From a virus (taxonomy: Duplodnaviria > Heunggongvirae > Uroviricota > Caudoviricetes > Demerecviridae), in IMG/VR virus record IMGVR_UViG_2706795139_000001: a DNA stretch of 64,000 nt; one strand, given 5' to 3'. Position 1 is the stretch's first letter; the number at the start of each line of letters is the position of its first letter. Made by a program: the position numbers and the translations under genes. A model generated the notes under the pieces. The model was not told the origin of the DNA, did not search any database, and worked only from the letters and a program-made list of their open reading frames with translations. Below are positions 1-55,659 of this stretch, piece after piece.

Positions 1-150
1 ATTGCGGTCGAATGTTTCGGCGTATCATAAACAGCTTTTGAAATATCGTCGCAAACTTCCAATTTAGTAGCGCGTAAACGCTTACCGTAGAAGTTAAAAT
101 CTGCGGCCATTTTCAAAATTTGAGCTTGTTTTTCTGCGGAAATAACCATG
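1..150 (-). CDS. hypothetical protein, partial (N-terminal 50 aa; rest lies left of window)
   Basis: ATG at 150 with GGAG RBS upstream on minus strand; ORF runs off window start. Confidence 0.4.
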
Positions 151-245
151 ATAATAAAACTCCGTTAAAGGGATTAAAAACGTTTGTTATTGGCAATATT
201 GCCAGATATAACGCCGCAAATGAGTGGCGTTATAATTTGCAACAT

Positions 246-443
246 TTAACTAATCGGCATTAGGCTAGAACTAACACCACAAGCAACGGCGGCAATAAAA
301 CAAAGTAAGCCCAAACGCTTAGCTAATTTAGATTTACGTTTAAAATAATATGAATCTAAATCATTTTGAAAATAAGCGAACAATAATGAGGCCGCCATAA
401 TAAATAAGCCTAGAATTAAAGATTCAGTAGGAAAGAAAATCAT
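246..443 (-). CDS. small membrane protein (65 aa)
   Basis: ORF track; two hydrophobic segments. Confidence 0.35.
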   Translation of the reverse strand: MIFFPTESLILGLFIMAASLLFAYFQNDLDSYYFKRKSKLAKRLGLLCFIAAVACGVSSSLMPIS

Positions 444-532
444 TTTTAAAACTCCTGATTTAAGGGAAGAAAATAACTATCGCTAAACAGTTATATTATT
501 GCCCTCCCACTAGGAAGGGCAAGGTATAACTA

Positions 533-949
533 TTATTCACCTGCGGCTTGTTTTACTTCATCGGCAACGCCTAACAGTTGCGCCACGGCGTCCAGTGTTT
601 CCAATTTTGCACTTTCCAGTGATGCCAGATCGTCAACGTCTTTGATAATGCCTGAATCGATGGCATGTTTTGCAATAACACGCACATAATGCGCTTTACG
701 GATGGAACTACCACCGCCAACTTTACGCGGCTTATCGCTTTTCTGATACGCTTTCGCGCTGGTCAATTTTGAGCGAACAGACACGGGGGAGGCCGCGCCA
801 ACTGTTTTCGCAATTTCTTTCAGGCCGTCGCTGTTGGCGAACTCTAATCCGTTTTCATTAATTAGCTGTTGATACATGGTAACAGCCTGCTGGGTGTTTT
901 CTTCATTCCAAGCAAATTTTGCGGTTTTTTCGGTTTTAACGTTAGCCAT
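533..949 (-). CDS. hypothetical protein (138 aa)
   Basis: ORF track; good coding composition. Confidence 0.5.
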   Translation of the reverse strand: MANVKTEKTAKFAWNEENTQQAVTMYQQLINENGLEFANSDGLKEIAKTVGAASPVSVRSKLTSAKAYQKSDKPRKVGGGSSIRKAHYVRVIAKHAIDSGIIKDVDDLASLESAKLETLDAVAQLLGVADEVKQAAGE

Positions 950-1050
950 GATTGTAACTCCTATCGATTTAATTTAAGGGATAAGATTAACATAATGTTA
1001 ATCGTTATATACCCCGAACTACTGGGGTATATAAAAGTAACACTATAAAC

Positions 1051-1302
1051 TTATGCTACAGCTTCCCATTTTTCATTGCGCTGGGCAACCTTTACAACGT
1101 CGCCGGATTTAACCCGAACGTTATAAACGGTTTTCCCGTTGTTACTCCGTTCCGTTTCAGCGTATACCGCATCAATTACATCAAACGGCATAAGCGCCGC
1201 GCCTTTAATGCGCTCGGCCTTTCCGGTTAATTCGTCCGTTTTAGTAACGAAAGGAATAAAAACGGATTGACCAATTTTTGGCGCATTAGTAACGTTTTTC
1301 AT
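1051..1302 (-). CDS. hypothetical protein (83 aa)
   Basis: ORF track. Confidence 0.45.
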   Translation of the reverse strand: MKNVTNAPKIGQSVFIPFVTKTDELTGKAERIKGAALMPFDVIDAVYAETERSNNGKTVYNVRVKSGDVVKVAQRNEKWEAVA

Positions 1303-1530
1303 GGTATAAACTCCAATTTATTCAGTGGATTGTTCCGCATTACCTGCTAGAAAGTAACAGGTAATAAGAAAAAATCCGCTCGCCAATATAATCAATTTAA
1401 AGAACTCCACTCAGGCCGCTATATCCCAGTTAGGGGGCGGGACACATTATGGTAAGTGCCGACCGTCAAATTTTATCAAGTTATCGCTCTTATCGAACTG
1501 GGTACATCTTAAAGCCTATCGGCTAGGGTG

Positions 1531-1734
1531 TCAAACAGTTTTTTGCAGTTTTTTATGATTTTCTTTCAGGTCAATCATAATATTGCGCCAGATCATTTCT
1601 AAACCTTGCTGGCGGCCTTTCTTGTACTGCGCAAATCGGTATTTTACGGATTGCTGGGCTATTGTCAACAATTTTTTTGTTTCGCTATCTAGTGCCTTGC
1701 TAGGCTTGCCAGTTATTAAAAGCGTTTGTTTCAT
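1531..1734 (-). CDS. hypothetical basic protein (67 aa)
   Basis: ORF track. Confidence 0.35.
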   Translation of the reverse strand: MKQTLLITGKPSKALDSETKKLLTIAQQSVKYRFAQYKKGRQQGLEMIWRNIMIDLKENHKKLQKTV

Positions 1735-1911
1735 ATCGTCGATTCCTTATAATATATAAGTTTACCGCCGATAGGCTTTAAGATATACCCAATTTTTAAA
1801 GAGCGTGGCGGTAAACTTCCCGCCGTGTAGTTCGTCATTGCCGCCCTACGAGATAAATAATAGCAAATACCAAAAATGGCGCAACCTTATTTTTGTAAAG
1901 AAACGTAAGTT

Positions 1912-2253
1912 TTACGCCTTTCTATAGTCCCCCTTATTTTGGTTGTTTTCGGCTTGAGTTACTAACCGTAAGTTATCAATAAAATTATTACTAGGGTTAC
2001 GATCAATATGATCAATTACTAGTTTGCTATCTATTTTATAGTTAAATAATAACCACACAATACGATGCGCTAGGTAACGCTCTTTATTGAGCTGTACAGA
2101 CCAATAGCCATCCTTTCTTTTAGTGCCTGCTACCCCATGAAAGGCGCAACCGGGGCGGGATACTTTCCACCGTAGGCAACTGGGACTAGTTTCATCATAG
2201 TAAAGATTATCTAGCACGGTTTCTAAATCAATATCTTTTGTTAACTCAATCAT
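1912..2253 (-). CDS. HNH homing endonuclease (113 aa)
   Basis: motif HIDRNPSNNFIDNLRLVTQAENNQNK (HNH/H-N-H with AP2-like tail). Confidence 0.7.
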   Translation of the reverse strand: MIELTKDIDLETVLDNLYYDETSPSCLRWKVSRPGCAFHGVAGTKRKDGYWSVQLNKERYLAHRIVWLLFNYKIDSKLVIDHIDRNPSNNFIDNLRLVTQAENNQNKGDYRKA

Positions 2254-2817
2254 TAATATTCTCCTATTAGTTTCATTTGGTTATTATATTATACCAAAAT
2301 TATTAGCAATGTGGCTAATACAGTTTCACCGGACGCCGTCCAGCTATTGCCTAAGTTTAAAGGAAACGGGCGCGCGAATACCATAAAACCAAGCAGATAG
2401 GCAAGTAATTTTTTCATTTATATTTGCTTTGCCCTACTTGATTTTTCTAGAATCCATCAGGTGACGATAAACGGGATATCCCTTTATGATGGGATGCCTG
2501 AAAATTTTACCGCGTTAGAAAGCGTTTTAGGCGGCTTATTTTCGATTTAACAAATATTTAACAAAAGCAAAATTGAAAAATAGTTGGAAAAGGTATTGAC
2601 TTTTTAAAATCAAGACTAAACGAGTTATTTTATAAAATTAATTAATTGACTTTCGTTTACTGTTGTGTATTAGAAAGATAGCAGACTAATAATTGCTAGA
2701 ATGATAATCTTGCTGGTGGATTGTAATAGCCTGAACTATTAGCAGACTACTAATCCCGTAAAATCTCATTAGCCAACTAACTATTTCATATTATATAATA
2801 TACATATAAATTAATGA

Positions 2818-2900
2818 GAAATAATAACTATAAGAAATCGTAACCGATAGAAATAATAACTATAAAAATAATCACTACTATAATAATAACGATAAGAAAC
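2818..2900. repeat. three direct repeats of GAAATAATAACTATAAGAAAT-like 21-mer
   Basis: copies at 2818, 2850, 2878 seen directly. Confidence 0.6.
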
Positions 2901-2908
2901 TATCGGCC

Positions 2909-3047
2909 TAAGTGAGAACCACTATCATTTAAGTTATCCACAGGTTTATTAACAGCACTTTTTGACTTGACACGATAGGCGGACTTTACAACGTTTATCC
3001 ACAGACTTATCCACATGTTATCCTACTGTATAAATATACAGGGTAAA
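2909..3047. repeat. left arm of ~140-bp inverted repeat carrying DnaA boxes (TTATCCACA at 2934, 2995, 3007) and internal palindrome CTGTATAAATATACAG
   Basis: reverse complement aligns with 6376-6515 at roughly 85% identity. Confidence 0.75.
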
Positions 3048-3246
3048 AAGGTAGTGTTAACGACTGCAATTAATTTTAAGCGGCCTAAAACGCTTTCTAA
3101 CGAGCTAAACGCTGCGGGGTAATATTAAAGTAAAGCCTTCACCCGTCGCCCTGGTGGCTTCGCCGTGTTTTGCTCTTTACTATACCGCTGCGCAGTTAGC
3201 ATAAAACTAGGCGCTAGGCAAGGAAAATAAAAAGGTAAAATAAACG

Positions 3247-3276
3247 TTGCCCCTAGAAAGAAAATACCTTTATCAT
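3247..3276 (+). promoter_or_regulatory. candidate sigma70 promoter (TTGCCC-18-TATCAT) for cassette
   Basis: sequence pattern only. Confidence 0.3.
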
Positions 3277-3307
3277 TCTCCTACCGATTAACGAGGGAGG
3301 CCAACAA

Positions 3308-4294
3308 ATGAGGCTATATAAACCAGATAACGCAACCGTCTTAAAAGGTGCATTGCGCAACCTGCTGGACGGTAGCAGAACAACCAGCATTAAACACTTT
3401 GTTAACAAGGCCGAAGATATTCACCAAAATTTTTTTGATGATTTCGATGCCTATGATATGAGTAGTTTTTTGCAACTGTATAAGCAAGGGGCAACGATTA
3501 TCTTGTATAATCGGGATAATCACCTGCTTACTAGCAGGGGGCCGGATACTGATTTTATAATCGTAAAAGGTAGCACAGTAAAAGCCTATGATACTGGGGC
3601 GGGCTTAGAAGTTTTTTCAATAGAAAATTATGAAGCCAACCCCAATGATCTTTATGATATTGAGAATTTTCTTGATTCATTTTGGCGTTATTTATCCGTT
3701 GGCTGGAATCGGTCAATTGGTGACGGGTATCGTCTGGCGGCTGTAATGGCTTTTGATGATAACGGTAATTTTTTGCTACCGCCGGAATTATATGATCGTG
3801 TATATGAAGGCGATATTGTTGACGCCGGATTCTCTTTCGAAAGAGAAGAAAGTATTGGCAATATAGAAAAACATGCTGTAAATTCTAACACTCAAAGCGT
3901 TAACACTCAAATCACTGAAAACAAAGGAAAAAATACTATGACCAAGATCGCTAATATCGTTGCCGCTAATAAATCCGCTGTTGTAAATGCTGCAAAACTG
4001 GAAGCGGGTAAAATTGCATTGACTCAAATCACGAAAGTAGCGGCTAAAAAAGCGCCGTTTATGATTAAAGGTTATATTGATACGCCTATTGGTCGAGTAG
4101 TTATTGCTAACCTGCTGAGCGTAGCGGTTGACCAGTATGCCCCTAGCAACCAAAAGGCGAAAGCGGTAGCAGGTGCAGCTATGGAAGCGGCTATGTTAGA
4201 AATGGTGCAAAGTTTTAACATCGCTGAAATGATTGATGAAATGGTGAAAGGTATTGATATTTCTACTTTTACCACTAGCACCGAAAGCGAGTAA
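3308..4294 (+). CDS. hypothetical protein (328 aa), first gene of IR-flanked cassette
   Basis: ORF track; RBS GAGGGAGG upstream; no recognisable motif. Confidence 0.6.
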   Translation: MRLYKPDNATVLKGALRNLLDGSRTTSIKHFVNKAEDIHQNFFDDFDAYDMSSFLQLYKQGATIILYNRDNHLLTSRGPDTDFIIVKGSTVKAYDTGAGLEVFSIENYEANPNDLYDIENFLDSFWRYLSVGWNRSIGDGYRLAAVMAFDDNGNFLLPPELYDRVYEGDIVDAGFSFEREESIGNIEKHAVNSNTQSVNTQITENKGKNTMTKIANIVAANKSAVVNAAKLEAGKIALTQITKVAAKKAPFMIKGYIDTPIGRVVIANLLSVAVDQYAPSNQKAKAVAGAAMEAAMLEMVQSFNIAEMIDEMVKGIDISTFTTSTESE

Positions 4295-4302
4295 TAATAT
4301 TA

Positions 4303-4327
4303 AGCGGGGATTGTTACCCCGCTTTAC
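4303..4327 (+). terminator. hairpin AGCGGGGATTGTTACCCCGCT after 3308-4294
   Basis: stem-loop seen; weak T-run. Confidence 0.4.
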
Positions 4328-4359
4328 TATTCCCTTGTTAACTAATAGGAGGCTAATAA

Positions 4360-4854
4360 ATGGCTGCGGAAAAATATGGCTTCTCACTGGGAGAAGTGAG
4401 CACGGCAAAACATGATATGATCATTTTGGTCGATTGTCATACTGGCTATTGCGGAGAAGGTTGGACGGCGGAACATTTTGTTCCTGCTGGTTGTGATCTG
4501 GACGCTTTCGCTCATGAAATGGCTATTGATAATGCTTCTCGTTTTGGTAGCGATGGTTACGAAGACGAAGAAACTGGCGAATGGTATGAAAATGAAAACG
4601 TATATGCAAGCCTTTATCATTATCAGTTAAGTAAATCCGGCACATATGTAAACGGCGGCGATCCTATTAATTCCGTCATGAAATTAATTATTAAATATGG
4701 TGGCGTCGAGATAGTTGGTAACAAAGCGGTAATATACGCAAATCGATTAAAACAGCTTGTTTATATTCCTGATAATTCCCGTTGGGATGAATATGCCGTT
4801 TTACAGAAAGAACTAAAACGCTGTTTCGGCGTGGAAACATTAGAAATAGTCTAA
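4360..4854 (+). CDS. hypothetical protein (164 aa)
   Basis: ORF track; AGGAGG RBS. Confidence 0.6.
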   Translation: MAAEKYGFSLGEVSTAKHDMIILVDCHTGYCGEGWTAEHFVPAGCDLDAFAHEMAIDNASRFGSDGYEDEETGEWYENENVYASLYHYQLSKSGTYVNGGDPINSVMKLIIKYGGVEIVGNKAVIYANRLKQLVYIPDNSRWDEYAVLQKELKRCFGVETLEIV

Positions 4855-4869
4855 TGTAAAGTTTTGTAA

Positions 4870-4897
4870 AGGTCGCCTATTATGGCGGCCTTTTTTG
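4870..4897 (+). terminator. rho-independent terminator (GGTCGCC..GGCGGCC + TTTTTTG)
   Basis: hairpin plus T-run. Confidence 0.6.
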
Positions 4898-4961
4898 TTA
4901 TAATGCCTTTACACCGAAACGGTGGACTGAAAATTTTCCCTGATTTCTAGGAGGCGTTAAA

Positions 4962-5111
4962 ATGGTTATTTTTCGATCTATTCTGGCTAGTATCTTGGGC
5001 GCTATTTTATCACTGTTTGCAATAGCTTTCGGAGTTCACGTGGTTATTATTGGAGCAGGTATCGCGGGGTTTTCTTACTTGTTAGGCTGTATGACTGGTA
5101 AAGGGGAATAA
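4962..5111 (+). CDS. small hydrophobic protein (49 aa, 2 predicted TM), below ORF-track cutoff
   Basis: ATG with TAGGAGGCG RBS; translated by hand MVIFRSILASILGAILSLFAIAFGVHVVIIGAGIAGFSYLLGCMTGKGE. Confidence 0.4.
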   Translation: MVIFRSILASILGAILSLFAIAFGVHVVIIGAGIAGFSYLLGCMTGKGE

Positions 5112-5113
5112 AA

Positions 5114-5326
5114 ATGTTAAAGAATGTTTCCCTTGCCCGTTCCAAAGGTTTTAAGCTGGTGGATGTTAACACGTTCGAGCGTCCAGATTGTAAAATCGAA
5201 TATGTAGCACGCAACAAAAACGCTTTCCGTGTTACAGAAAAGAAATTTGACAAGCGCGGCAATTTGGTAGCCGAAACGGTTAAACACTTTGCCACCTTTT
5301 ACGCTGCGTTTCGTGGGGTGTTATAA
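5114..5326 (+). CDS. hypothetical protein (70 aa)
   Basis: ORF track. Confidence 0.45.
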   Translation: MLKNVSLARSKGFKLVDVNTFERPDCKIEYVARNKNAFRVTEKKFDKRGNLVAETVKHFATFYAAFRGVL

Positions 5327-5520
5327 TATGGTTACTTGTCATTTTAAAATCCGTATTAATGGGACTCCGCTTGCTGGTTGTTTTAAAGGCGAAGCTATGG
5401 GACTAGATTCTGCTTTACAAGAATTTAACAAGCGTTTACGCCATGCGGATTTTGGGGGGCTATCGAATTAGTAGCATATGGTAACGGCGTGAAAATGATT
5501 TTGAAAAGGGAGTCTAAATA

Positions 5521-5865
5521 ATGGTAATTTATGAGGGCAATCGTTTTGTTACTAATTGCCGTCCGGCATTATTAGCAAACTATTTAAACCAGCTTTCACC
5601 AGTTTATAAAGGCGTGGTTAATATCTATGAAGGCAAAGCACATTATAAAATTTCTGCCGTTGTCACCCGTGAACTAGCGTTTCAATTTTTAACTTTTGGG
5701 TCTTGTGACGTTCAGGTTATGGGGGAAGCGTTAATAGCAGAAAATGAAAATGAATTTACTGACATTTTCCGCAAAGTATGTACGGAGCGCCTGATTATGA
5801 AAGGCGCATATATTCAATCCACTGCTGAAAGTATTGAAACAGCATTTCGAAAAATTGCACAATGA
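5521..5865 (+). CDS. hypothetical protein (114 aa)
   Basis: ORF track; RBS AAGGGAG. Confidence 0.5.
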   Translation: MVIYEGNRFVTNCRPALLANYLNQLSPVYKGVVNIYEGKAHYKISAVVTRELAFQFLTFGSCDVQVMGEALIAENENEFTDIFRKVCTERLIMKGAYIQSTAESIETAFRKIAQ

Positions 5866-5908
5866 ATAGCTGGTGGCGAAAAACACAAAGCCATAAATCT
5901 AATAATAC

Positions 5909-5940
5909 CGCTGGGAAGCATTCCCAGCGTTTACGATTTG
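5909..5940 (+). terminator. hairpin CGCTGGGAAGCATTCCCAGCG + TTTACGATTT
   Basis: perfect palindromic stem. Confidence 0.5.
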
Positions 5941-5992
5941 GTAATGGCTTCACAATGATATTGATAATCATTCTCATTCTAGGAGCAATGGC

Positions 5993-6232
5993 ATGGCTGT
6001 AAGAATTTTACGATATGTAGAACGTAAAGAAACCGATATTATGCAACATCATTTAACTGATGGGCAATACGCGCAATTTTTAGAAATGCAGAAAAGCGGA
6101 GCTGATACAGCAACGCTAGGAGCGTGGATCAACTCAGTTTCAACGTGTACGCATTTTGATTCATACGGGTATACGCCAGCCGAAACCGTCCAGATCTTTG
6201 ACGACTACGAGAAAGAATACATAACAGACTAA
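5993..6232 (+). CDS. hypothetical protein (79 aa)
   Basis: ORF track; RBS TAGGAGCA. Confidence 0.45.
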   Translation: MAVRILRYVERKETDIMQHHLTDGQYAQFLEMQKSGADTATLGAWINSVSTCTHFDSYGYTPAETVQIFDDYEKEYITD

Positions 6233-6239
6233 TAATAAC

Positions 6240-6266
6240 GGGGCGCAACTATCGGCCCCGCTTTTT
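6240..6266 (+). terminator. rho-independent terminator (GGGGCGCAACTATCGGCCCC + GCTTTTT)
   Basis: GC stem plus T-run. Confidence 0.65.
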
Positions 6267-6375
6267 CTGGCCTTCCTCAAATTTCCCCTTATTAAAGTAC
6301 CTCCTCCAAAATTAAAACGCTTAGAATGCGTTTGAGAGCGTTTTAGACCTATATTAGAGTTATTCACTACGTAGG

Positions 6376-6515
6376 AATACTGTATAAATATACAGTAGGA
6401 TAACCTGTGGATAAGTCTGTTGAAAACGCCTCAAAATCGCTAGGGTTTTGTCAAGTCAAATCGTGCTGTTAATAAACCTGTGGATAACTTAAATAACAGT
6501 GTTTCTCACTTCCCT
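6376..6515. repeat. right arm of inverted repeat (DnaA boxes as TGTGGATAA at 6406, 6479)
   Basis: reverse complement of 2909-3047. Confidence 0.75.
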
Positions 6516-6690
6516 TTCTAAATGCGAATCATTCTCAGTATGTGACTCATTCGTATTCAACTCTGTAAATGATAACCGTTCTCATTCCCCTTTCTAAACG
6601 CGAATCATTATCATTCGCATTCAACTTCTCAAATGCGAATCAATCTCATTATCATTCGCATTCAGGCGAGCAGGGCAATTGCCCTGCGCT
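6505..6690. repeat. three direct repeats of CTTTCTAAAYGCGAATCA with GCGAAT..ATTCGC hairpins, then perfect palindrome GCAGGGCAATTGCCCTGC (6672-6689)
   Basis: seen directly. Confidence 0.6.
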
Positions 6691-6692
6691 TT

Positions 6693-7943
6693 TGTGCAAA
6701 TCCGACATTTGCCCCCATGGATTACGCGTGGGCGTGTATGTGCAAATCCGACCCATTTTTGGTAGTGTGCAAATCCGACCCTAAAATTTCATCCCTCCAT
6801 TTTACTAGAAATTCTAGATCATATGAACACTTAGACTGAGTACCATTACTAGTAGGAACATAAGCCCGGTAATAATCACCCTTTGAGGTAGTTCTAGCAA
6901 CACGAATATATTTTGGAAGATTGGTTGTTTTACTGTTGGTATTTTTGCGATTTCTAGCATTTTTATAGTCTGGTATTTGTCTTAGATTCTCAGGAGAGTT
7001 ATTAGTGGGATCCTGATCTATATGATCTACCTGCAACTCGGGATCAATACTGCCGTTATGCAGGCAGAAAACAATCCGAGAAACTGCTAGGGTTCCCACC
7101 CCAGATACAAAGACCACATAAGACTTCCTACCTTTTCCGTCGTCCCTTAAAGTGCCTGTATGTTTTCTTTTAGGTAATCTACTCAGCCCACTGGGACTTG
7201 ATGGGTCAATAAAAAATAAGTCTTTCATTTGTGCATATTCGATAGGTATATATCTTGACATAATAAAATTCCTCCTATGAAGTAATATTATAACAAAATT
7301 TTCGAAAGTGTGCAAGTGAAATTTTTATATTTGAAAATAACCGCCCTCCCTATAACCGCCCTATTCGAATCCTGTGGGATATGTGCAAATCCGACACGGT
7401 TTTTCTAGGATTAAGATGTGCGAATCCAATGAAATTTTTGTGACTTCGATGAGAGGGTGTGTGATTGTGTGAGTTTGGGGAGAAGTTGAGAGAGCGAGAG
7501 AAATTTAGAGGCTAGAAGGATGTGGGCGCAGGATTGGTGCGGAGCACCTGATTTGCGGGGATTTTGGGGAAGAGTTGAGATAATTTGGGAAGATTTGAGA
7601 TAGGTGCAGAAAAAGTAAAATTTTATTAGCAAAATGGGGCAAAATAGCTTGACAAGTGGAAATTCTTGTGGATCTAAAAACTCAGGCAATCATGGGCCTT
7701 CGGCCCGAAATAATGCTGCTATTTTCGGGAGATTATATGTTCCTAAAAACTTAGGCATTTGTGCAAATCCGACCAGTTTTTAAACTCCTGTCAGTGTGCA
7801 AATCCGACAGTAATTTCTGGAAATGTGTTTTGGAAAAATGTCTTCTAGAAATAACTGCCCTCCCTATAACCGCCCTGTATAGAAAACCGGCCTAAGATAT
7901 GTGACGTTGGTGAGAAACTGCCCTAGAATGCGTGCAAATCCGA
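6693..7943. repeat. dispersed array of 14-mer TGTGCAAATCCGAC (perfect at 6693, 6739, 6766, 7382, 7760, 7795; degenerate at 7418, 7932)
   Basis: exact-copy repeats counted by eye. Confidence 0.8.
6722..7315 (-). CDS. HNH homing endonuclease (197 aa) embedded in the repeat array
   Basis: motif VDHIDQDPTNNSPENLRQIP. Confidence 0.65.
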   Translation of the reverse strand: MHTFENFVIILLHRRNFIMSRYIPIEYAQMKDLFFIDPSSPSGLSRLPKRKHTGTLRDDGKGRKSYVVFVSGVGTLAVSRIVFCLHNGSIDPELQVDHIDQDPTNNSPENLRQIPDYKNARNRKNTNSKTTNLPKYIRVARTTSKGDYYRAYVPTSNGTQSKCSYDLEFLVKWRDEILGSDLHTTKNGSDLHIHAHA

Positions 7944-8295
7944 TGAATATTTTTGTGTGATCTCTAGAATTTGTGCTTATCAATTTCCTAGAAACTTAGG
8001 AGTCTAGAAGAAAGTGTTGTGCCATCCTAGCAGATGAGCGGCAACCGGTGTATCATCTTGAACGTTAATTTATCTATTCAACAGTATTAGTTTTTATATA
8101 AGTATAAGATCCCCAGGGTTCTCATATAGAGCTTTGCCCCCACCAGAAGGTCTCGTGATGTTTCTAGTAATCTTTATTAAATTACCTGTTGACTTGTCCT
8201 GTCGCTCCGTAACCTACGCTACAAGTCAGTAATTTAAGATTCCTGAACCACCACACCTTCTGTGTGGCAACTCTAAATGGTTAATTCTATTAACT

Positions 8296-8324
8296 CATAG
8301 AGTTATGATAACATACATTTAGCT
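8296..8324 (-). promoter_or_regulatory. candidate promoter TTGACA-17-TATCAT reading leftward into ORF-free 8040-8290
   Basis: minus-strand sequence ttgacagatagctaaatgtatgttatcat. Confidence 0.35.
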
Positions 8325-8389
8325 ATCTGTCAACGAGAGTTTGTATTTGAGTCTCGGTACAGGTATTGTGCACCGAGACATGCAGAGTA

Positions 8390-9274
8390 CTATAATAATT
8401 CTTGGTATGCTTTCTGATACGCCTCAGTGTCAGTAGGTGTATCTTTTGCTAACGCAATTAGTTCATCCGTTATCTGAATATTCGTATTATAACGTTGGTG
8501 GAACTCGTCTGGAATTTCTAGATATCTATTTATGAATGCTGCAGCAAGCGGTGTAACTAACCCAATTTCTAGAGATAACTTAACTTGTTTCTCATAAATT
8601 AAATATTGAGAATCAGACGGTATTGGTGGGGTTACATCAATTTTTTCTGGTTCTTTTTCTGGTAGCAATGGATTGTTATACAATGCTTCATCTGGAAGCA
8701 CAGATTTACGCTCTTTAAATATATAAGTTTCTAGATCAGATGCTTTAGACCCTGAATACACAGCAAAAACGCTAGCTTTACCTTGAGATGCCCTAACTGG
8801 TAAGTAACTAGTAGGGTAGCTCCTTAATGCATCGTGGAATGGACTTCCTGAGTATTTGTATGTATCCCCATAGAGATCATCAATATTCATTCGTTCATCT
8901 TCAAAGATATGGAAAGAGCTAAATGATGGGATAGTAAAGTATTCCATCTGTAATCCATAAACTAAGAAACGATGTGCGTATGCACTGATTTTTAAGACTG
9001 TAAATGCTTTCTCACCTTCTTTATAGGAATTGCCTTTTGAAGTAACTTGGTAACGTTTACAAAACATCTCTACTAGACGTTTCTCATTAATACCAAGAGT
9101 GGAGTACAGTCGTCCATTTAATCCTATAAGTGCATCGAACATAAATGCTAGTTTATCTTTTTCTTCTTGGGATAGTTCTGGAAATGGCAATACTTTGGCA
9201 TTAGGAACACTATTGTTCTCTTTAGGTTTTGTTTTACCAGCATTTTGTCTTAGTTTATCTTTAAAGTTATACAT
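8390..9274 (-). CDS. hypothetical protein (294 aa)
   Basis: ORF track; hairpin just downstream at about 8350-8385. Confidence 0.55.
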   Translation of the reverse strand: MYNFKDKLRQNAGKTKPKENNSVPNAKVLPFPELSQEEKDKLAFMFDALIGLNGRLYSTLGINEKRLVEMFCKRYQVTSKGNSYKEGEKAFTVLKISAYAHRFLVYGLQMEYFTIPSFSSFHIFEDERMNIDDLYGDTYKYSGSPFHDALRSYPTSYLPVRASQGKASVFAVYSGSKASDLETYIFKERKSVLPDEALYNNPLLPEKEPEKIDVTPPIPSDSQYLIYEKQVKLSLEIGLVTPLAAAFINRYLEIPDEFHQRYNTNIQITDELIALAKDTPTDTEAYQKAYQELL

Positions 9275-9353
9275 TATTATCTCCCGTTTTTAAGGTCTGG
9301 ATGACCTTCTTTTTATTTTAGAGCCTCCGTAGAGGCTCATATATTAGGAATTA

Positions 9354-9965
9354 TTAATCCTTTTTACTCTCATTAATAACAGCCCCCAATGCTTCCATAA
9401 TTGCATCTTCTAGACTTCCATGTTTATCAGGATTACTAAAATGAATAGTATAAACAGAATTCCTAGAAACTCCAGCATCCGCAGGTGCTACGCTTCGCAT
9501 ATCAGATTCAAAAGCTTCTTGGGTATGTTGCAGCTGTACAGAAGGGCCGTAATCTTCACCAAACTTATATGACTTCGTACTACTTACCACACCCCCACAA
9601 GGAACATTGTGCATATCCGATATTAATCTTTTATCGGAGTTATTCAGCATTGAGATTGTCCCTGACTGCCACGGATCTCTAATAGTCACTGGAGTACTGG
9701 GGCGGTTCACCTCAGTCTTCACAAGTTTGTACCCTGCATCGATTAGTGCATTAATCAGGTTATCCGCCGGGATGCGAGCCGTACCAAAAATCTTACGAGC
9801 ATCTTCGAGCTTACCTTCAAGATCTTTACATGCTCTAAGGTCAGTGTGTGCAAATGTTAGCTTCATAGATTTGAATTGTACAGTAGCAGTTAAATCTTTA
9901 AAGCTATAATCCCATGTGTTCAGTTCATGGTCTGGTACTACTTGAATAGGTTGTTGTGTAAACAT
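9354..9965 (-). CDS. hypothetical protein (203 aa)
   Basis: ORF track. Confidence 0.55.
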   Translation of the reverse strand: MFTQQPIQVVPDHELNTWDYSFKDLTATVQFKSMKLTFAHTDLRACKDLEGKLEDARKIFGTARIPADNLINALIDAGYKLVKTEVNRPSTPVTIRDPWQSGTISMLNNSDKRLISDMHNVPCGGVVSSTKSYKFGEDYGPSVQLQHTQEAFESDMRSVAPADAGVSRNSVYTIHFSNPDKHGSLEDAIMEALGAVINESKKD

Positions 9966-10150
9966 TATTTATTCTCCAGTTTGTCTAACAGTTTATGGGC
10001 TGCTAGGTTATATTGCTCAAGTTCACGATTAAGGATTTGGTTTTCACACTTTAGCTCTAGATTCTTATTATTAAGAATATTGCAGATCAGTAGAAGTGCT
10101 AATATAACTAGCAAGGAACCTACAAGTATTAAAAGAAAAAGAGTTTCCAT
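9965..10150 (-). CDS. small membrane protein (61 aa)
   Basis: N-terminal TM helix. Confidence 0.4.
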   Translation of the reverse strand: METLFLLILVGSLLVILALLLICNILNNKNLELKCENQILNRELEQYNLAAHKLLDKLENK

Positions 10151-10383
10151 TATTTAATTCCCATGTAACGTTTGAGATATATGACGAAGTCTTCTGCTGT
10201 ATGCTCCACACTACCTTGAGCTACAAACAACTTTAAAGCCTCACGCTGTAATTTAAGAGCAGCTAACTCACCACGTAATTTTGTTATATCTTCCGCTAGT
10301 TCTCTAGCTCTGCGCATAATAGCAAATGATACAAATGTTACAATAAATAACATAACTGCTAAAATAATTACTATGATCTCCAT
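10150..10383 (-). CDS. small membrane protein (77 aa)
   Basis: TM helix then coiled coil. Confidence 0.45.
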   Translation of the reverse strand: MEIIVIILAVMLFIVTFVSFAIMRRARELAEDITKLRGELAALKLQREALKLFVAQGSVEHTAEDFVIYLKRYMGIK

Positions 10384-10661
10384 ATTAACATCCAGCTTTT
10401 ATCATATATTTGGGCATGTTCTACTAATTCATTTATTGATGTAGAATTATCGTAGATACCCTCTAGTAAACGTTTTCTGTCAAATTTATCAACCAAATAC
10501 TCCGCGCCATTTATCACTACCATATACAGCTCTGGAACTAAGGGGTGTTTGTTTGGTATTGGACGACTACCTAAGTCTATTTCATTTTTACCCCACTCTG
10601 TTTTAAACAGTCTGTTACTAAGTGCTGCTAGTGGGTTTGACCATACAATATAGCTACTCAC
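10371..10661 (-). CDS. hypothetical protein (96 aa)
   Basis: ORF track. Confidence 0.45.
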   Translation of the reverse strand: MSSYIVWSNPLAALSNRLFKTEWGKNEIDLGSRPIPNKHPLVPELYMVVINGAEYLVDKFDRKRLLEGIYDNSTSINELVEHAQIYDKSWMLIWRS

Positions 10662-11142
10662 TACTTATCTCCATTCTTAGCTTTGAAAACTTATTATACC
10701 AAACTATATGATTATCGTCAATTACAAATTTATGGTAACATGCTGGTACGGTATAAGTTCCATAATCCGTGACACGCTGCACAACCTTGTGTGCACACAG
10801 TCGACAACCATGCCCTTCTAAATGAGATCTAGCAGTTTGCCAGTAATAACCCTTATGGTCTGGACAATAGATCTCGACTTGCTGTTGCATTGTTTTATAA
10901 TTTACACGCTCATACCCAAAGAAAGCCCCGTGAGCTGCAATGGCTTTCTTGATAAATATAAGGTTTAGCGCCTCTTGCTGAAAATCGGGATGTAGCTGTT
11001 TAATCTTAGTTCTATTAATAGATCCATCCGATTTGATGAACCTATTTATTGGAAAGTTGTTAGCTTCCTCGATTAATAGTTCATTTACTTTCTCTCTCAT
11101 ATTAGATACTCTCACAACTAAGATGGAAACATTCGTAAGCAT
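10654..11142 (-). CDS. zinc-ribbon protein (162 aa)
   Basis: CPDHKGYYWQTARSHLEGHGCRLCAH, same Cys-His ribbon as in the N-terminus of the T5orf172 endonucleases in this window. Confidence 0.5.
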   Translation of the reverse strand: MLTNVSILVVRVSNMREKVNELLIEEANNFPINRFIKSDGSINRTKIKQLHPDFQQEALNLIFIKKAIAAHGAFFGYERVNYKTMQQQVEIYCPDHKGYYWQTARSHLEGHGCRLCAHKVVQRVTDYGTYTVPACYHKFVIDDNHIVWYNKFSKLRMEISSE

Positions 11143-52869: not shown

Positions 52870-55659
52870 GTGTTTTCAATCCTACAAGGTCATGCAGGAT
52901 TTCATCGCGATTTAGCCACAGGCAATTGGCGAGAAATCAAAGCGGAAGATTATACCTTTGCCAAGCGATTCTCGAAAGAGCATCCAGAAGGTAAACCAGC
53001 TTCTATGCCCTTCAAATTTGATGTAATAGAAGAGCACGACCCACAAAGCCTGGCCGAAATGTTACCCCTTATGAGACGTTTAACGTCTGACCCTCATATC
53101 GTTGCGGTACGAGGTCGATGTCTTGCACCTAAAAATAATGTGCGGCGTAAGAAAGGTAACTTTAATGTATCTAATCCTAGTAATATTATTGCTATGGACG
53201 TGGATGGTATCCTAGATACCGGTGGGTACGACAAATTTAATCTTGTTGGTATGGCCCGCCACATTATTAAGATGTTGAATAGTATTAGTGAGGATATGTT
53301 TCCTCTTAATGCAGGCTTTATAGCTCATGCATCGTCTTCGGCTGGGCTAAAACCAGGTATCCGAATGCACTTAATGCTAGAATCTAACGTCAAGGTAACT
53401 CAGGGTCAGCTAAAGTTCTTATTTACATCTATCAACGATAGTAGTAAGCAAAAATTTGGTTTTGATATTGCCGACCTAGCTTATTATTCATCTGTCCAGC
53501 TCCACTATTTTGCCGACCCCTTATTTAGCGATGGTATTGTTGATCCGTTTAAAGCGGAGAGTAAGCCACGTCTGGTGTATGTTAAAGGTTCGAAAGTAAA
53601 TTTGCCCAATAATCTGGTTGACTATGAAACAACTAGAGGGGAGTTTAAGGAAGAGTTTTATTCTTTACTTGATCAAATTAAAGGCAAAAAGATTGCTTCT
53701 GATAAAGTAGAAGAAACCATCAGCGAGTTAGAAGAAGCTGATGATGGAGTGTATTTGCGTATTATCCCCAAACTATACCATAGGGCATTAGAGGATGGTG
53801 TTGATTTTGCATGGCTAGAACGTGAGATTAAACCAGCTTTATCTGAATATATTGCAACTAAAGATAACAGTCGTAACATTCAAGATTACTTTAATAACGG
53901 TCGTAAGCAGGCTCTCAAAGCGTTTGTTAATAATTCTAAACGTGAGATTCCATTAAATCTGAAAGGTGTTCCACTTAAGAAATTAGAAGTGGATTCTCCA
54001 CCAGAAGTTCCATACCTGAAGATTAACATTGTGCCACCAAAAGGCCATATAACATTTGTTAAGGCAAGTCTTGGTACTGGTAAAACTACGGCAGTAACTA
54101 AATGGCTGGACGCAGGTGTTCTTCCGGGCAACTTTTTAGCAGTTACAAATACTAGAGCACTGGTATCTTCAAATGCCAAGAAATTTAGTGCAGGACAATA
54201 CGATAAGTCTGTAGATATGCTCAACTTTAAACGTGGAGCTATTGATCGTATGTCCACAACTATTCACTCTTTGCATAAGTTCAAAAGTTTTATTGGTCAA
54301 ATAGACACCATTTTTATTGACGAATGTGACGCTGTAATGAATGATCTATTATTCGCCCCTGTTGTTAAACAACGCCGCGAGTGTATTCAAGTTCTACGTG
54401 ACATCCTCATGACAGCTAAGACTGTAATTTTATCCGATGGTGATATTAGTGCTGAGACGATTGAAGCATATGGTTCTCTAATTGATTTTGATAAACCAGT
54501 AGCATTTTATAATCATCACCGTAAAATGCTGTCAAAAGCTCATGCTTATGAGTTCCCTGACGAATCCAGTATTTGGGTTGCACTTCAGACTTCTCTAGAG
54601 ATGGGTGAGAAATCTATTCTAGTATCTGATTGTGGCCCAGATGAGCTGAATGAGAAAGGTATGGCATTACGTCGTAATACTGGTGCGTTAGTTAAAGAAA
54701 TCCATTCAAACTCCACTTCAGATGTGGATATTCGACGTATTCTGGATTACACGACTAATGAGCTAATTGATCAACAAATTGATTGCTTATTATGTAGTCC
54801 ATCCGTAACGAGTGGTGTTGACTTCAATTACTTTGATAACGTATTTGTTATTACTAGAACTAGTAATCAAGCGCCAAACATGCGTTTTCAAGCAATCAGG
54901 CGCGACCGTGGTGCTCAGAATATCTATTATTTTATTGATAAATCCACTAGTGGGTTCTCCGCAGGTTCTGAACAATATAATATTGATGAAGGTTGGCTGG
55001 AGTTAGCACAGCAATTATATGCACGTCGTAGGGAATTAGAATCTAGGAACTATACTAGTACCTTACGTTATTACTTGCTTGATCAGGGTGCAACTATTGA
55101 TATTTTCAGTGAAAGCTGGGGAACTATTGAAGGTGCTGGTAAAGAGTACACAGAAGAGCGAATAAAAGCTATTCTGCACTCAACTCCTGATTATTGTGCT
55201 CCACGTCATGCGGATGCGTATGAAGCTAAACTACTTCTTGTTCGCTATTATCATCTTGAGTCTATTAAAGATGTAACAGTTGAGCATGTTGAACAATATA
55301 TCAAAGATAAACCGAATGATCGAGCTGCATTCTTCCATAAGATGCACGAGATGTTCTGGGAAGATATTAAGAAGTGTTCAAACGTCACTATCAAACCATT
55401 CATAGAAGCTCTGAAAGGTAAGAAGAAAGATTTCTTCCTTAAAACAGGTCAGAGTGCTAATCCAAAATATGCTAGAATGTATCTTGGTATGATGGGTATT
55501 GGTAAGGATATGAACACTGAAAATATCGTAGACTGGTATAGAACCTACTGCAAAATCGAATGTATGCCGATTCCTTATAAGTTTATGACTGATGAGGAGA
55601 AACATATGCATGATGAAGCAATGTCAGAGCTAGGTGCTAGAAATGACAGTGAAGAATAA
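52870..55659 (+). CDS. SF2 helicase-like ATPase, candidate replication-origin-binding protein (929 aa)
   Basis: Walker A KASLGTGKTTAV, Walker B IFIDECD; AGGAG RBS; GTG start. Confidence 0.55.
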   Translation: MFSILQGHAGFHRDLATGNWREIKAEDYTFAKRFSKEHPEGKPASMPFKFDVIEEHDPQSLAEMLPLMRRLTSDPHIVAVRGRCLAPKNNVRRKKGNFNVSNPSNIIAMDVDGILDTGGYDKFNLVGMARHIIKMLNSISEDMFPLNAGFIAHASSSAGLKPGIRMHLMLESNVKVTQGQLKFLFTSINDSSKQKFGFDIADLAYYSSVQLHYFADPLFSDGIVDPFKAESKPRLVYVKGSKVNLPNNLVDYETTRGEFKEEFYSLLDQIKGKKIASDKVEETISELEEADDGVYLRIIPKLYHRALEDGVDFAWLEREIKPALSEYIATKDNSRNIQDYFNNGRKQALKAFVNNSKREIPLNLKGVPLKKLEVDSPPEVPYLKINIVPPKGHITFVKASLGTGKTTAVTKWLDAGVLPGNFLAVTNTRALVSSNAKKFSAGQYDKSVDMLNFKRGAIDRMSTTIHSLHKFKSFIGQIDTIFIDECDAVMNDLLFAPVVKQRRECIQVLRDILMTAKTVILSDGDISAETIEAYGSLIDFDKPVAFYNHHRKMLSKAHAYEFPDESSIWVALQTSLEMGEKSILVSDCGPDELNEKGMALRRNTGALVKEIHSNSTSDVDIRRILDYTTNELIDQQIDCLLCSPSVTSGVDFNYFDNVFVITRTSNQAPNMRFQAIRRDRGAQNIYYFIDKSTSGFSAGSEQYNIDEGWLELAQQLYARRRELESRNYTSTLRYYLLDQGATIDIFSESWGTIEGAGKEYTEERIKAILHSTPDYCAPRHADAYEAKLLLVRYYHLESIKDVTVEHVEQYIKDKPNDRAAFFHKMHEMFWEDIKKCSNVTIKPFIEALKGKKKDFFLKTGQSANPKYARMYLGMMGIGKDMNTENIVDWYRTYCKIECMPIPYKFMTDEEKHMHDEAMSELGARNDSEE

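What the first reader, a model, noticed from the sequence alone, without database searches (positions are those of the whole stretch)
6693..7943. Eight-copy dispersed array of TGTGCAAATCCGAC wrapped around an HNH gene
Six perfect and two degenerate copies of one 14-mer sit at irregular spacing (30-620 bp) and in the same orientation. They flank, and one copy precedes, the HNH endonuclease 6722-7315. The array is followed by a GA-rich GAGTTGAGA-type repeat tract (7440-7640). Spacing rules out CRISPR. The regular 14-mer looks like an array of protein-binding sites (a pre-early protein or host factor) or an injection-pause element.
Basis: seen in the sequence. Interest (0 to 1): 0.6.

Follow-up and report, generated by a model that had tools for sequence, protein, structure and literature searches.

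The report
T5 "direct repeat D" array
The repeated 14-mer is real, but it is the already catalogued "direct repeat D" array that all T5-like phages carry at the inner end of their long terminal repeat; it is probably a set of docking sites for a phage protein, its function has never been tested, and the HNH gene is a later mobile insertion into it.

Summary
The window is Salmonella phage Shivani, a T5-like phage. In detail: six perfect and two degenerate TGTGCAAATCCGAC copies, all on the + strand, against about 0.0005 perfect copies expected.

They are copies 1-3 and 5-9 of T5's annotated "direct repeat D" (DRD). The HNH gene is a mobile cassette, present in 25 of 531 related phage records. 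It replaced DRD4, and its ORF reads into DRD3 and DRD2.

Comparison adds three points:
- Copy order and spacing are nearly fixed across T5-like genomes.
- The 13-bp core GTGCAAATCCGAC is unchanged in Klebsiella, Pectobacterium, Yersinia and Vibrio relatives whose proteins are only 40-65% identical. It drifts in the most distant relatives.
- The array brackets the physical end of the terminal repeat (window 7674), across a G-rich, C-poor tract.

No function is published. My reading is an array of sites for a conserved phage DNA-binding protein. A2 capturing DNA at second-step transfer is my first choice (about 0.3). Terminase recognition of the genome end is close behind (about 0.25).

The feature is already known. 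Interest is modest, apart from giving a testable cis-element for T5's unsolved two-step injection.

The parts
6693..6706 (+). DRD1, perfect copy. It starts 6 bp after the terminator hairpin, which is T5 'palindrome J' and the site of the 7.9% nick in T5.
6739..6752 (+). DRD2, perfect copy. It lies inside the 3' end of the HNH ORF.
6766..6779 (+). DRD3, perfect copy. It lies inside the 3' end of the HNH ORF.
6790..7365 (-). Mobile HNH cassette (approximate limits). It replaces T5's DRD4 and about 60 bp around it. It carries the HNH_3 CDS (6722-7261, minus strand), its promoter (7314-7287) and an extra copy (7335-7362) of a 28-bp repeat.
7309..7315 (+). Truncated remnant of DRD4 (TGTGCAA). Its complement supplies the -35 hexamer of the HNH promoter.
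7382..7395 (+). DRD5, perfect copy.
7417..7430 (+). DRD6, degenerate copy (TGTGCGAATCCAAT).
7431..7650 (+). G/A-rich, C-poor tract, equivalent to the T5 direct repeat A region. It is the lowest-C 200 nt of the whole window and holds seven runs of three or more G. It fills the large gap in the array up to the terminal-repeat end.
7649..7681 (+). Conserved terminal-repeat end block, TTGACA-N-TGTGG(A/C)TC|TAAAAAC. The repeat ends after base 7674.
7760..7773 (+). DRD7, perfect copy. It is the first copy outside the terminal repeat, 86 bp beyond its end.
7795..7808 (+). DRD8, perfect copy.
7931..7944 (+). DRD9, degenerate copy (CGTGCAAATCCGAT).
9608..9621 (+). DRD10, a distal copy (TGTGCATATCCGAT here, perfect in many relatives). 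It lies inside the minus-strand ORF 9354-9965.
6402..6664 (+). Neighbouring iss-type elements left of the array: two AACCTGTGGATAA DnaA-box units (6402-6414 and 6475-6487) and the GCGAATCATT...TCATTCGCATTC repeats (6490-6664).

Best explanation
Shown: this is the 'direct repeat D' (DRD) array of T5-like phages. It consists of about nine to twelve same-orientation copies of a 13-14-bp asymmetric word, with core GTGCAAATCCGAC. It lies in the 2-kb non-coding stretch between the rightward pre-early genes and the leftward early genes. It sits immediately right of the injection-stop repeats and brackets the physical end of the terminal repeat.

Inferred: each copy is a docking site for one conserved, phage-encoded, sequence-specific DNA-binding protein. 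About half the copies have a T-run roughly 6-9 bp downstream. Together the sites would nucleate a polar nucleoprotein complex.

Most likely partner and process: A2. It is the only DNA-binding protein among the three pre-early proteins shared across the family (dmp, A1, A2), and it is essential for second-step transfer. A2 is made from the first-step DNA. It would load on the DRD copies as the DNA just beyond the stop point becomes accessible. With membrane-associated A1, it would hold or draw this segment in and so restart transfer. The copies that lie inside the terminal repeat are duplicated at the right genome end as a by-product.

The HNH gene is an unrelated homing-type insertion that the array tolerates.
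For: Identity with T5 DRD:
- The same 14-mer is annotated as direct repeat D copies 1-9 in AY587007.1.
- Copy order and spacing (46, 26, 31, 81 or 71, 25 or 35, about 343, 35, about 137 bp) are conserved in most of the 28 multi-copy IMG/VR T5-like loci. No minus-strand copy is found.

Protein-site character:
- Information content is about 2 bits per position over exactly 14 bp, with flat flanks apart from a T-run. That logo is inflated, because copies were selected by match to the motif.
- The region does not behave as a promoter array or as a known RNA.

Family-wide conservation:
- Klebsiella IME260 has 11 copies, Pectobacterium DU_PP_V has 9 and Yersinia phiR2-01 has 8.
- Vibrio Chazly21 and River4 have about 8 copies reading GGTGCAAATCCGAC, although A2 is only 41% identical there.
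- In IME260 the array holds the only copies in the whole genome.

A2 specifically:
- Only about 55 proteins are shared between Shivani and Chazly21. Among pre-early proteins only dmp, A1 and A2 are shared.
- The A2 segments VRSKL, YQKxD and RKxHYVR are invariant across genera that have an identical DRD core.
- In the distant loci L168 and L169 these segments read (A/V)RQKL, Y(I/V)SP(E/D) and RKIEVV(K/N), and there the DRD 5' half has changed from TGTGC to AGTAC.
- The literature describes A2 as a DNA-binding dimer essential for second-step transfer, with no known target (bioRxiv 10.1101/866236; bioRxiv 10.64898/2026.04.02.716235).
- DRD1 starts about 54 bp right of Davison's estimated first-step shear point.
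Against: - No binding data exist for any protein.
- The A2 hypothesis gives no reason why the terminal-repeat end should always fall in the large gap of the array.
- If the shear point marks the cell surface, the DRD copies are still outside the cytoplasm during the pause and A2 cannot reach them.
- A2 is reported to be a dimer, yet the site has no dyad symmetry.
- The A2 model gave no significant structural match to any DNA-binding fold. The best Foldseek E-value was 0.9.
- The co-variation rests on a single divergent lineage.
- A2 and the small terminase have the same phyletic distribution, so their distribution cannot separate them.
- Extra copies inside genes (DRD10; DRD11-12 in the exo2/D13 gene) are not explained.
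Confidence: 0.3

Rival explanations
1. The array is a terminase recognition (pac-like) site. The DRD groups on either side of the cut site are bound by the small terminase or the terminase holoenzyme. T5 injects its left end first, so by the last-in-first-out rule packaging should start at the right end. The inner end of the terminal repeat would then be the initiation cut. DRD1-6 plus the G-rich tract would occupy the position of lambda cosB or SPP1 pacL, and DRD7-9 that of pacR.
For: - The terminal-repeat end falls in the largest gap of the array in every genome where both repeats are recorded. Eight Tequintavirus/Epseptimavirus-type contigs share the same end block...TGTGG(C/A)TC|TAAAAAC (with small variants), and Shivani's own end reads TGTGGATC. 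The end lies about 245-257 bp after DRD6 and 86 bp before DRD7.
- phiR2-01 shows the same arrangement.
- IME260 has 5 copies to the left and 6 to the right, with quite different spacing but the same conserved cut block.
- The Thalassavirus record starts all fall in or next to the array.
- The left junction of the repeat has no such array, as expected for a one-sided pac site.
- T-runs after many copies suggest bent DNA.
Against: - The putative N-terminal helix-turn-helix of the small terminase (residues 26-55) is poorly conserved between Shivani, IME260 and Chazly21, although their DRD cores are identical.
- pac sites usually evolve fast, whereas this core is fixed across subfamilies.
- The iss and the terminal-repeat end must share this one intergenic region anyway, so some co-location is expected without any functional link.
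- The Thalassavirus boundaries are only approximate. River4 and Thalassa differ by 20 bp, and Bennett starts outside the array.
- The packaging direction is inferred, not measured.
Confidence: 0.25
2. The copies are iterons of a replication or recombination element. They would bind an early phage protein, for example the D2 helicase annotated as 'origin-binding' or an HTH protein of the D region. With the adjacent DnaA boxes and the G-rich tract, which could form an R-loop or G-quadruplex, they would form an origin at the repeat/unique junction. The DRD11-12 pair near 65% of the genome would be a second site.
For: - The layout is a set of direct repeats next to DnaA boxes and a strongly strand-asymmetric tract.
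- T5 annotates DRD copies 11-12 inside exo2 at 79019-79048, and Shivani has the equivalent pair.
- Chazly21 has a one-mismatch copy in the same orientation in the neighbouring D14 gene.
- A 929-aa protein with a Herpes_ori_bp helicase match and several HTH proteins are encoded in the window.
Against: - Spacing is irregular and not helically phased, unlike classical iterons.
- IME260 has no copy outside the array.
- The Herpes_ori_bp match covers only helicase motifs, not a DNA-binding domain.
- Published EM mapping places T5 origins near the middle of the genome, and Davison argues against a replication role for this region.
Confidence: 0.1
3. The copies are weak binding sites for a host factor, most obviously low-affinity DnaA boxes. 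They would extend the DnaA-box cluster of the injection-stop region, as in Davison's membrane-DnaA model.
For: - The complement of the first nine bases, ATTTGCACA, differs from the DnaA-box consensus TTWTNCACA at one position (read directly from the sequence; the consensus is as quoted).
- Strong DnaA boxes lie 200-300 bp to the left.
- Near-identity of the motif in phages of Enterobacterales and Vibrio would fit a conserved host protein.
Against: - The five further bases CCGAC are as conserved as the box-like part, and DnaA does not read them.
- In distant relatives it is the box-like 5' half that changes (TGTGC to GGTGC to AGTAC), while AAATCCGAC stays.
- I could match no other host-factor consensus (IHF, Fis, CRP). 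That was a comparison from memory, not a test.
Confidence: 0.08

Closest known systems
T5 'direct repeat D' (DRD) of Repeat Region 3 in the left terminal repeat (GenBank AY587007.1; Davison 2020, bioRxiv 10.1101/866236)
   Same: The 14-mer is identical. The strand, copy order, flanking elements (palindrome J terminator, DRC/DRE repeats, DnaA boxes, DRA tract, terminal-repeat end) and spacing are the same for all copies except DRD4.
   Different: Shivani carries an HNH cassette in place of DRD4. DRD6, DRD9 and DRD10 are more degenerate than in T5.
Small-terminase binding arrays around a cleavage site (SPP1 pacL-pacC-pacR; lambda cosB R sites). Compared from general knowledge.
   Same: Short repeated sites lie on both sides of, or next to, the exact genome-end cut, in DNA that is probably bent by A/T tracts.
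   Different: The array is much longer (about 740 bp). All sites point the same way. The motif is far more conserved than the putative TerS helix-turn-helix. No binding has been shown.
T7/T3 SRL and SRR short-repeat arrays flanking the terminal repeat. Compared from general knowledge.
   Same: These are arrays of short imperfect direct repeats abutting a direct terminal repeat, with no firmly assigned function.
   Different: The T7 repeats are 7-mers in tight tandem at both borders. DRD is a dispersed 14-mer found at only one border.
Plasmid and phage origin iterons with adjacent DnaA boxes (for example P1 incC/incA). Compared from general knowledge.
   Same: Asymmetric direct repeats are all in one orientation and lie next to DnaA boxes.
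   Different: Spacing is irregular and unphased. No adjacent initiator gene is found, and no evidence points to an origin here.

Membership tests
T5-type DRD array (Repeat Region 3 of Demerecviridae terminal repeats) | Repeat unit identical to the annotated T5 direct repeat D | tested here: met
   TGTGCAAATCCGAC matches the nine T5 features 'direct repeat D copy 1-9' with 0-1 mismatches.
T5-type DRD array (Repeat Region 3 of Demerecviridae terminal repeats) | Position: right end of the left terminal repeat running into unique DNA, to the right of the DnaA-box inverted repeats, the DRC/DRE repeats and the palindrome J terminator | tested here: met
   The Shivani repeat ends at window 7674, with five complete copies and the DRD4 remnant before it and three copies after it. 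The flanking elements align with T5.
T5-type DRD array (Repeat Region 3 of Demerecviridae terminal repeats) | Conserved copy order, orientation and spacing | tested here: met
   The Shivani spacings 46, 27, 35, 343, 35 and 136 match the family pattern. Only the DRD3-DRD5 interval differs, because of the HNH insertion.
CRISPR array | Regularly spaced repeats of about 28-37 bp, with unique spacers of similar length | tested here: not met
   The unit is 14 bp and the spacing ranges from 27 to 616 bp. The same 'spacers' are conserved between phages.
Terminase pac/cos recognition site | Lies next to the exact genome-end cleavage site | tested here: met
   The terminal-repeat end lies in the array's large gap in T5-like phages, phiR2-01 and IME260.
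Terminase pac/cos recognition site | Bound by the small terminase and required for packaging | not testable with these tools
   The only evidence is indirect. The TerS N-terminal helix-turn-helix is poorly conserved where the DRD core is identical.
Origin iterons | Regular, helically phased spacing next to an unwinding element and a cognate initiator gene | tested here: not met
   Spacing is irregular. No initiator gene is adjacent, since the flanking ORFs are an HNH gene and proteins of unknown function.
DnaA box | Match to the 9-mer TTWTNCACA, with no sequence requirement beyond it | tested here: inconclusive
   The match is 8 of 9 (ATTTGCACA). However, five further bases are equally conserved, and the box-like half is the part that varies in distant relatives.
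T5 injection stop signal (iss) | A cis-acting sequence that halts DNA entry at about 8% of the genome (a functional definition) | not testable with these tools
   Only position can be assessed. The array begins about 54 bp right of Davison's estimated shear point.

The most novel reading that the evidence does not exclude
The DRD array is the missing cis-partner of an essential T5 process. Either it is the specific loading platform of A2 that restarts DNA entry (second-step transfer), or it is the terminase recognition site that defines the inner end of the 10-kb terminal repeat. Its 13-bp core has been held fixed across Demerecviridae subfamilies for that reason. Either reading would turn a 50-year-old descriptive problem (Lanni's two-step injection, and the origin of long exact terminal repeats) into a defined protein-DNA interaction.
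Probability: 0.5. Interest if true: 0.6.

Novelty: already known. Interest (0 to 1): 0.3.

Why it matters
T5's two-step DNA injection, and the way phages with long exact terminal repeats cut and duplicate their ends, are both old unsolved problems. [quoted passage not shown]

This analysis gives a concrete, cheap hypothesis to test, resting on three results:
- The DRD core is invariant from coliphages to Vibrio phages.
- The array is always unidirectional.
- It always straddles the terminal-repeat end.

As a scan finding, however, it rediscovers an annotated feature.

Tried and rejected
- **CRISPR.** Rejected on unit length and spacing.
- **Array of promoters.** The complement contains TTGCAC, which resembles a -35 hexamer. 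No -10 follows at the right distance, except at the HNH promoter, which re-uses the DRD4 remnant (plus reading the sequence).
- **Structured RNA.** The only Rfam hit is a sub-threshold PrrF match, which lies left of the array.
- **Link to the T5 strand nicks.** Nick 1 abuts DRD1, and nick 4 lies 362 bp from DRD11. No DRD-like word lies near the expected positions of the 18.5% and 32.6% nicks in the window. I dropped this as a general rule.
- **Base-exact cut inside a DRD copy in Vibrio phages.** Chazly21 and River4 appeared to show it. It was rejected once four more Thalassavirus records showed inconsistent start points.
- **Phyletic profiling to separate A2 from TerS.** Both families (PF26822 and PF26823) are confined to T5-like contigs.
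- **A2 fold.** The model is confident and helical, but it has no significant PDB match.
- **Literature.** A literal search for the 14-mer found no paper. Davison 2015 is not held in the library. I did not look up Wang 2005 (a subscription journal). Their descriptions are therefore known to me only through the GenBank features and Davison 2020.
- **Host-factor consensus matches (IHF, Fis, CRP, dif, SlmA).** Checked by eye only; none was convincing.

Full report
**Source of the window.** The 2-kb region is 100% identical to Salmonella phage Shivani KP143763.1, a Tequintavirus of the Demerecviridae. Window coordinate equals record coordinate minus 3449. The record annotates a terminal repeat at 1-11123, so the left terminal repeat ends at window 7674.

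**The observation.**
- TGTGCAAATCCGAC occurs perfectly six times: at 6693, 6739, 6766, 7382, 7760 and 7795.
- Degenerate copies lie at 7417 and 7931. All eight are on the + strand.
- A perfect 14-mer is expected about 5e-4 times in 64 kb. None of 100 shuffles reached the observed count at up to 3 mismatches.
- Elsewhere in the Shivani record from position 2749 to 117000 there are only three other credible copies. One is a two-mismatch copy at window 9608. The others are a tandem pair at record positions 77029 and 77044. The word is therefore not frequent genome-wide.

**It is a known element.**
- In T5 (AY587007.1) the same 14-mer is annotated as 'direct repeat D', copies 1-9, at 9672-10409. 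The same record lists the neighbouring palindromes, DRB/DRC/DRA repeats and 'major single-stranded nick 1, 7.9%'. Copies 11-12 are annotated at 79019-79048, inside exo2.
- Davison's comparison of 25 T5-like phages lists 'nine DRD repeats' as one of three repeat classes of Repeat Region 3. It notes that the region overruns the terminal repeat by 270 bp. It states that the model 'assigns no role' to these repeats.
[quoted passage not shown] It describes A2 as a DNA-binding protein that acts in second-step transfer by 'an as-yet-unknown mechanism'.

**The HNH gene is secondary.**
- Alignment with T5 and an HNH-less relative shows that Shivani has about 575 bp (roughly 6790-7365) in place of T5's DRD4 and its surroundings. 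A remnant, TGTGCAA, is left at 7309-7315.
- The CDS (6722-7261, minus strand) matches Pfam HNH_3.
- Its last 24 codons are read out of DRD3 and DRD2, giving ...LGSDLHTTKNGSDLHIHAHA.
- Its predicted promoter takes its -35 hexamer from the DRD4 remnant.
- The cassette is found in 25 phage records, at 97-100% identity in all but phage NR01 (two records, 87%). In contrast, 531 records match the surrounding region, many at only 86-93% identity. This is the signature of a recently spreading homing element.
- The array therefore tolerates a 0.5-kb insertion, and the loss of one copy, between DRD3 and DRD5.

**Anatomy across relatives.**
- Twenty-eight IMG/VR loci from T5-like genomes carry three or more perfect copies. 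In most of them the start-to-start spacings are 46, 26, 31, 81 or 71, 25 or 35, about 343, 35 and about 137 bp.
- Many also carry a further copy 1.7-2.1 kb to the right. None has a minus-strand copy.
- A logo from 121 distinct copies with flanks shows about 2 bits per position over exactly 14 bp, TGTGC(A/g)AATCCGA(C/t). Information drops abruptly on both sides, apart from a T-run 6-9 bp downstream. The copies were selected by match to the motif, which inflates the core.

**Deep conservation.**

| Phage (group) | A2 identity to Shivani | Copies and form |
|---|---|---|
| Klebsiella IME260 (Sugarlandvirus) | 65% | 11 copies of (A)TGTGCAAATCCGAC; the only copies in its 123-kb genome |
| Pectobacterium DU_PP_V | 57% | 9 copies, TGTGCAAA(T/A)CCGAT, with a 355-bp gap |
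| Yersinia phiR2-01 | 75% | T5-like layout |
| Vibrio Chazly21 and River4 (Ermolyevavirinae) | about 41% | about 8 copies of GGTGCAAATCCGAC, followed by DnaA boxes |
| Metagenomic L168 and L169 | 31-34% | the 3' half AAATCCGAC persists; the 5' half reads AGTAC |

The neighbouring GCGAATCATT...CATT repeats persist in all of these as well.

**Relation to the genome end.**
- Eight IMG/VR genomes recorded with both repeats share essentially the same end block...TTGACAAGTGAAAATTTCTGTGG(C/A)TC|TAAAAACTCAGG, with small variants. One further contig has a discordant recorded end. Shivani's own end reads TGTGGATC.
- In these genomes the end lies about 245-257 bp right of DRD6 and 86 bp left of DRD7.
- phiR2-01 shows the same arrangement.
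- IME260 keeps the same block, with its annotated end 22 bp further on. It has five copies to the left and six to the right.
- The gap is filled by a G/A-rich, C-poor tract. This is the lowest-C 200 nt of the entire window (6.5% C) and holds seven G3-4 runs. IME260 has eleven G3-5 runs there.
- The left junction of the repeat has no comparable array.
- Thalassavirus record starts fall in or beside the array but are mutually inconsistent, so they count only as approximate support.

**What it is not.**
- It is not a CRISPR array.
- It is not a promoter array or a known RNA.
- It is not obviously a set of DnaA boxes. It matches the box at 8 of 9 positions, but five extra bases are equally conserved, and the box-like half is the part that drifts.

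**Mechanism (inference).** A sharp, asymmetric, orientation-fixed 13-14-bp word repeated about ten times is best read as an array of sites for one sequence-specific protein. Because the 5' half changes in the most distant lineage, the protein is more likely phage-encoded than host-encoded. It must belong to the roughly 55 proteins shared by Shivani and Chazly21. Two candidates stand out.

*A2 (about 0.3).*
- It is the only DNA-binding protein among the three shared pre-early proteins.
- It is essential for second-step transfer.
- Its segments VRSKL, YQKxD and RKxHYVR are invariant wherever the DRD core is identical. They are altered in L168 and L169, where the core differs.
- DRD1 starts just beyond the estimated first-step shear point.
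- This supports a model in which A2, made during the pause, loads on the first DNA to follow the stop and, with A1, restarts entry.
- Weaknesses: there are no binding data, the site has no dyad symmetry to suit a dimer, the sites may not be accessible during the pause, and the model gives no reason for the array to bracket the repeat end.

*Small terminase (about 0.25).*
- The bracket around the cut site resembles SPP1 pacL/pacR or lambda cosB.
[quoted passage not shown] By the last-in-first-out rule, the inner repeat end should then be the packaging initiation cut (inference from general phage biology).
- Against this, the TerS N-terminal helix-turn-helix is poorly conserved where the DRD core is identical.

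The phyletic distributions of the two proteins are the same. The A2 model is helical but matches no solved DNA-binding fold significantly. An origin-iteron role (about 0.1) and a host DnaA role (about 0.08) are less well supported.

**Verdict.**
It is wrong about the HNH relationship and about novelty.
- The feature is already known and annotated. Its function is open.
- The comparative points added here sharpen the experiment that should be done: an invariant core across subfamilies, a constant bracket of the repeat end, and the HNH gene as an insertion.

Noticed in passing
window 7431-7650: The G/A-rich tract between DRD6 and the terminal-repeat end is the most C-poor 200 nt of the whole 64-kb window (6.5% C, 37% G). 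It has seven G3-4 runs on the strand that runs 5'->3' towards the right genome end, which is a telomere-like polarity. Klebsiella phage IME260 has eleven G3-5 runs at the same place. G-quadruplex or R-loop potential was not examined.
   Followed up: partly
window 7649-7681: The exact terminal-repeat end sits in a block conserved from T5 to IME260, TTGACA-N(17-18)-TGTGG(A/C)TC|TAAAAAC. The block looks like a -35 hexamer plus a weak -10, so the cut lies within or just after the -10-like hexamer of a promoter-like sequence. A GGGCCTTCGGCCC hairpin follows within 30 bp.
   Followed up: partly
window 6722-6790 and 7287-7314: The HNH ORF borrows its last 24 codons from DRD3 and DRD2 (GSDLH is encoded twice). 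It borrows its -35 hexamer from the DRD4 remnant. The mobile gene has therefore co-opted array sequence at both ends.
   Followed up: yes
window 7335-7362 and 7849-7876: A 28-bp repeat, AAATAAC(C/T)GCCCTCCCTATAACCGCCCT, occurs twice. T5 has only the copy between DRD8 and DRD9. The extra copy travels with the HNH cassette, which hints that the cassette was assembled or moved by recombination with that spacer.
   Followed up: partly
window 9608-9621 (ORF 9354-9965, minus strand): DRD copy 10 lies inside a conserved gene of unknown function (phrog_5271) and encodes SD(M/L)HNVPCGG. Four synonymous positions within the motif are invariant in 25 distinct sequences, while neighbouring third positions vary. 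This suggests selection on the DNA word itself. The copy is absent from IME260.
   Followed up: partly
Shivani record 77029-77057 (outside the window; L170 9630-9658); T5 AY587007.1 79019-79048: A tandem DRD-like pair (TGTGCAGATCCTAC and GGTGCAAATCCGAC, 15 bp apart) lies inside the exo2/D13 gene. In T5 it is 362 bp right of the annotated 64.7% major nick. Vibrio phage Chazly21 has a one-mismatch copy in the same orientation in the neighbouring D14 gene. Its meaning is unknown.
   Followed up: partly
window 6490-6664; L168/L169 about 3550-3680; L176 1564-1695: The GCGAATCATT(A/C)TCATTCGCATTC-type repeats and palindromes left of the array (T5 DRC/DRE) are recognisable even in relatives whose A2 is only 31-34% identical. 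These non-coding words are as deeply conserved as DRD.
   Followed up: no
L124, L166, L179-L182 (Thalassavirus record starts): Deposited terminal-repeat boundaries of closely related Vibrio phages differ. River4 and Thalassa are 20 bp apart, and Bennett starts in the 15-bp tandem repeats. The boundaries are probably coverage-based approximations, so base-level conclusions from them are unsafe.
   Followed up: yes
window 52870-55659: A 929-aa early protein (annotated 'replication origin binding' in IME260) matches Pfam Herpes_ori_bp only over helicase motifs (positions 46-197 of the 820-position model). The 'origin-binding' label is therefore not supported for its DNA-binding part.
   Followed up: partly
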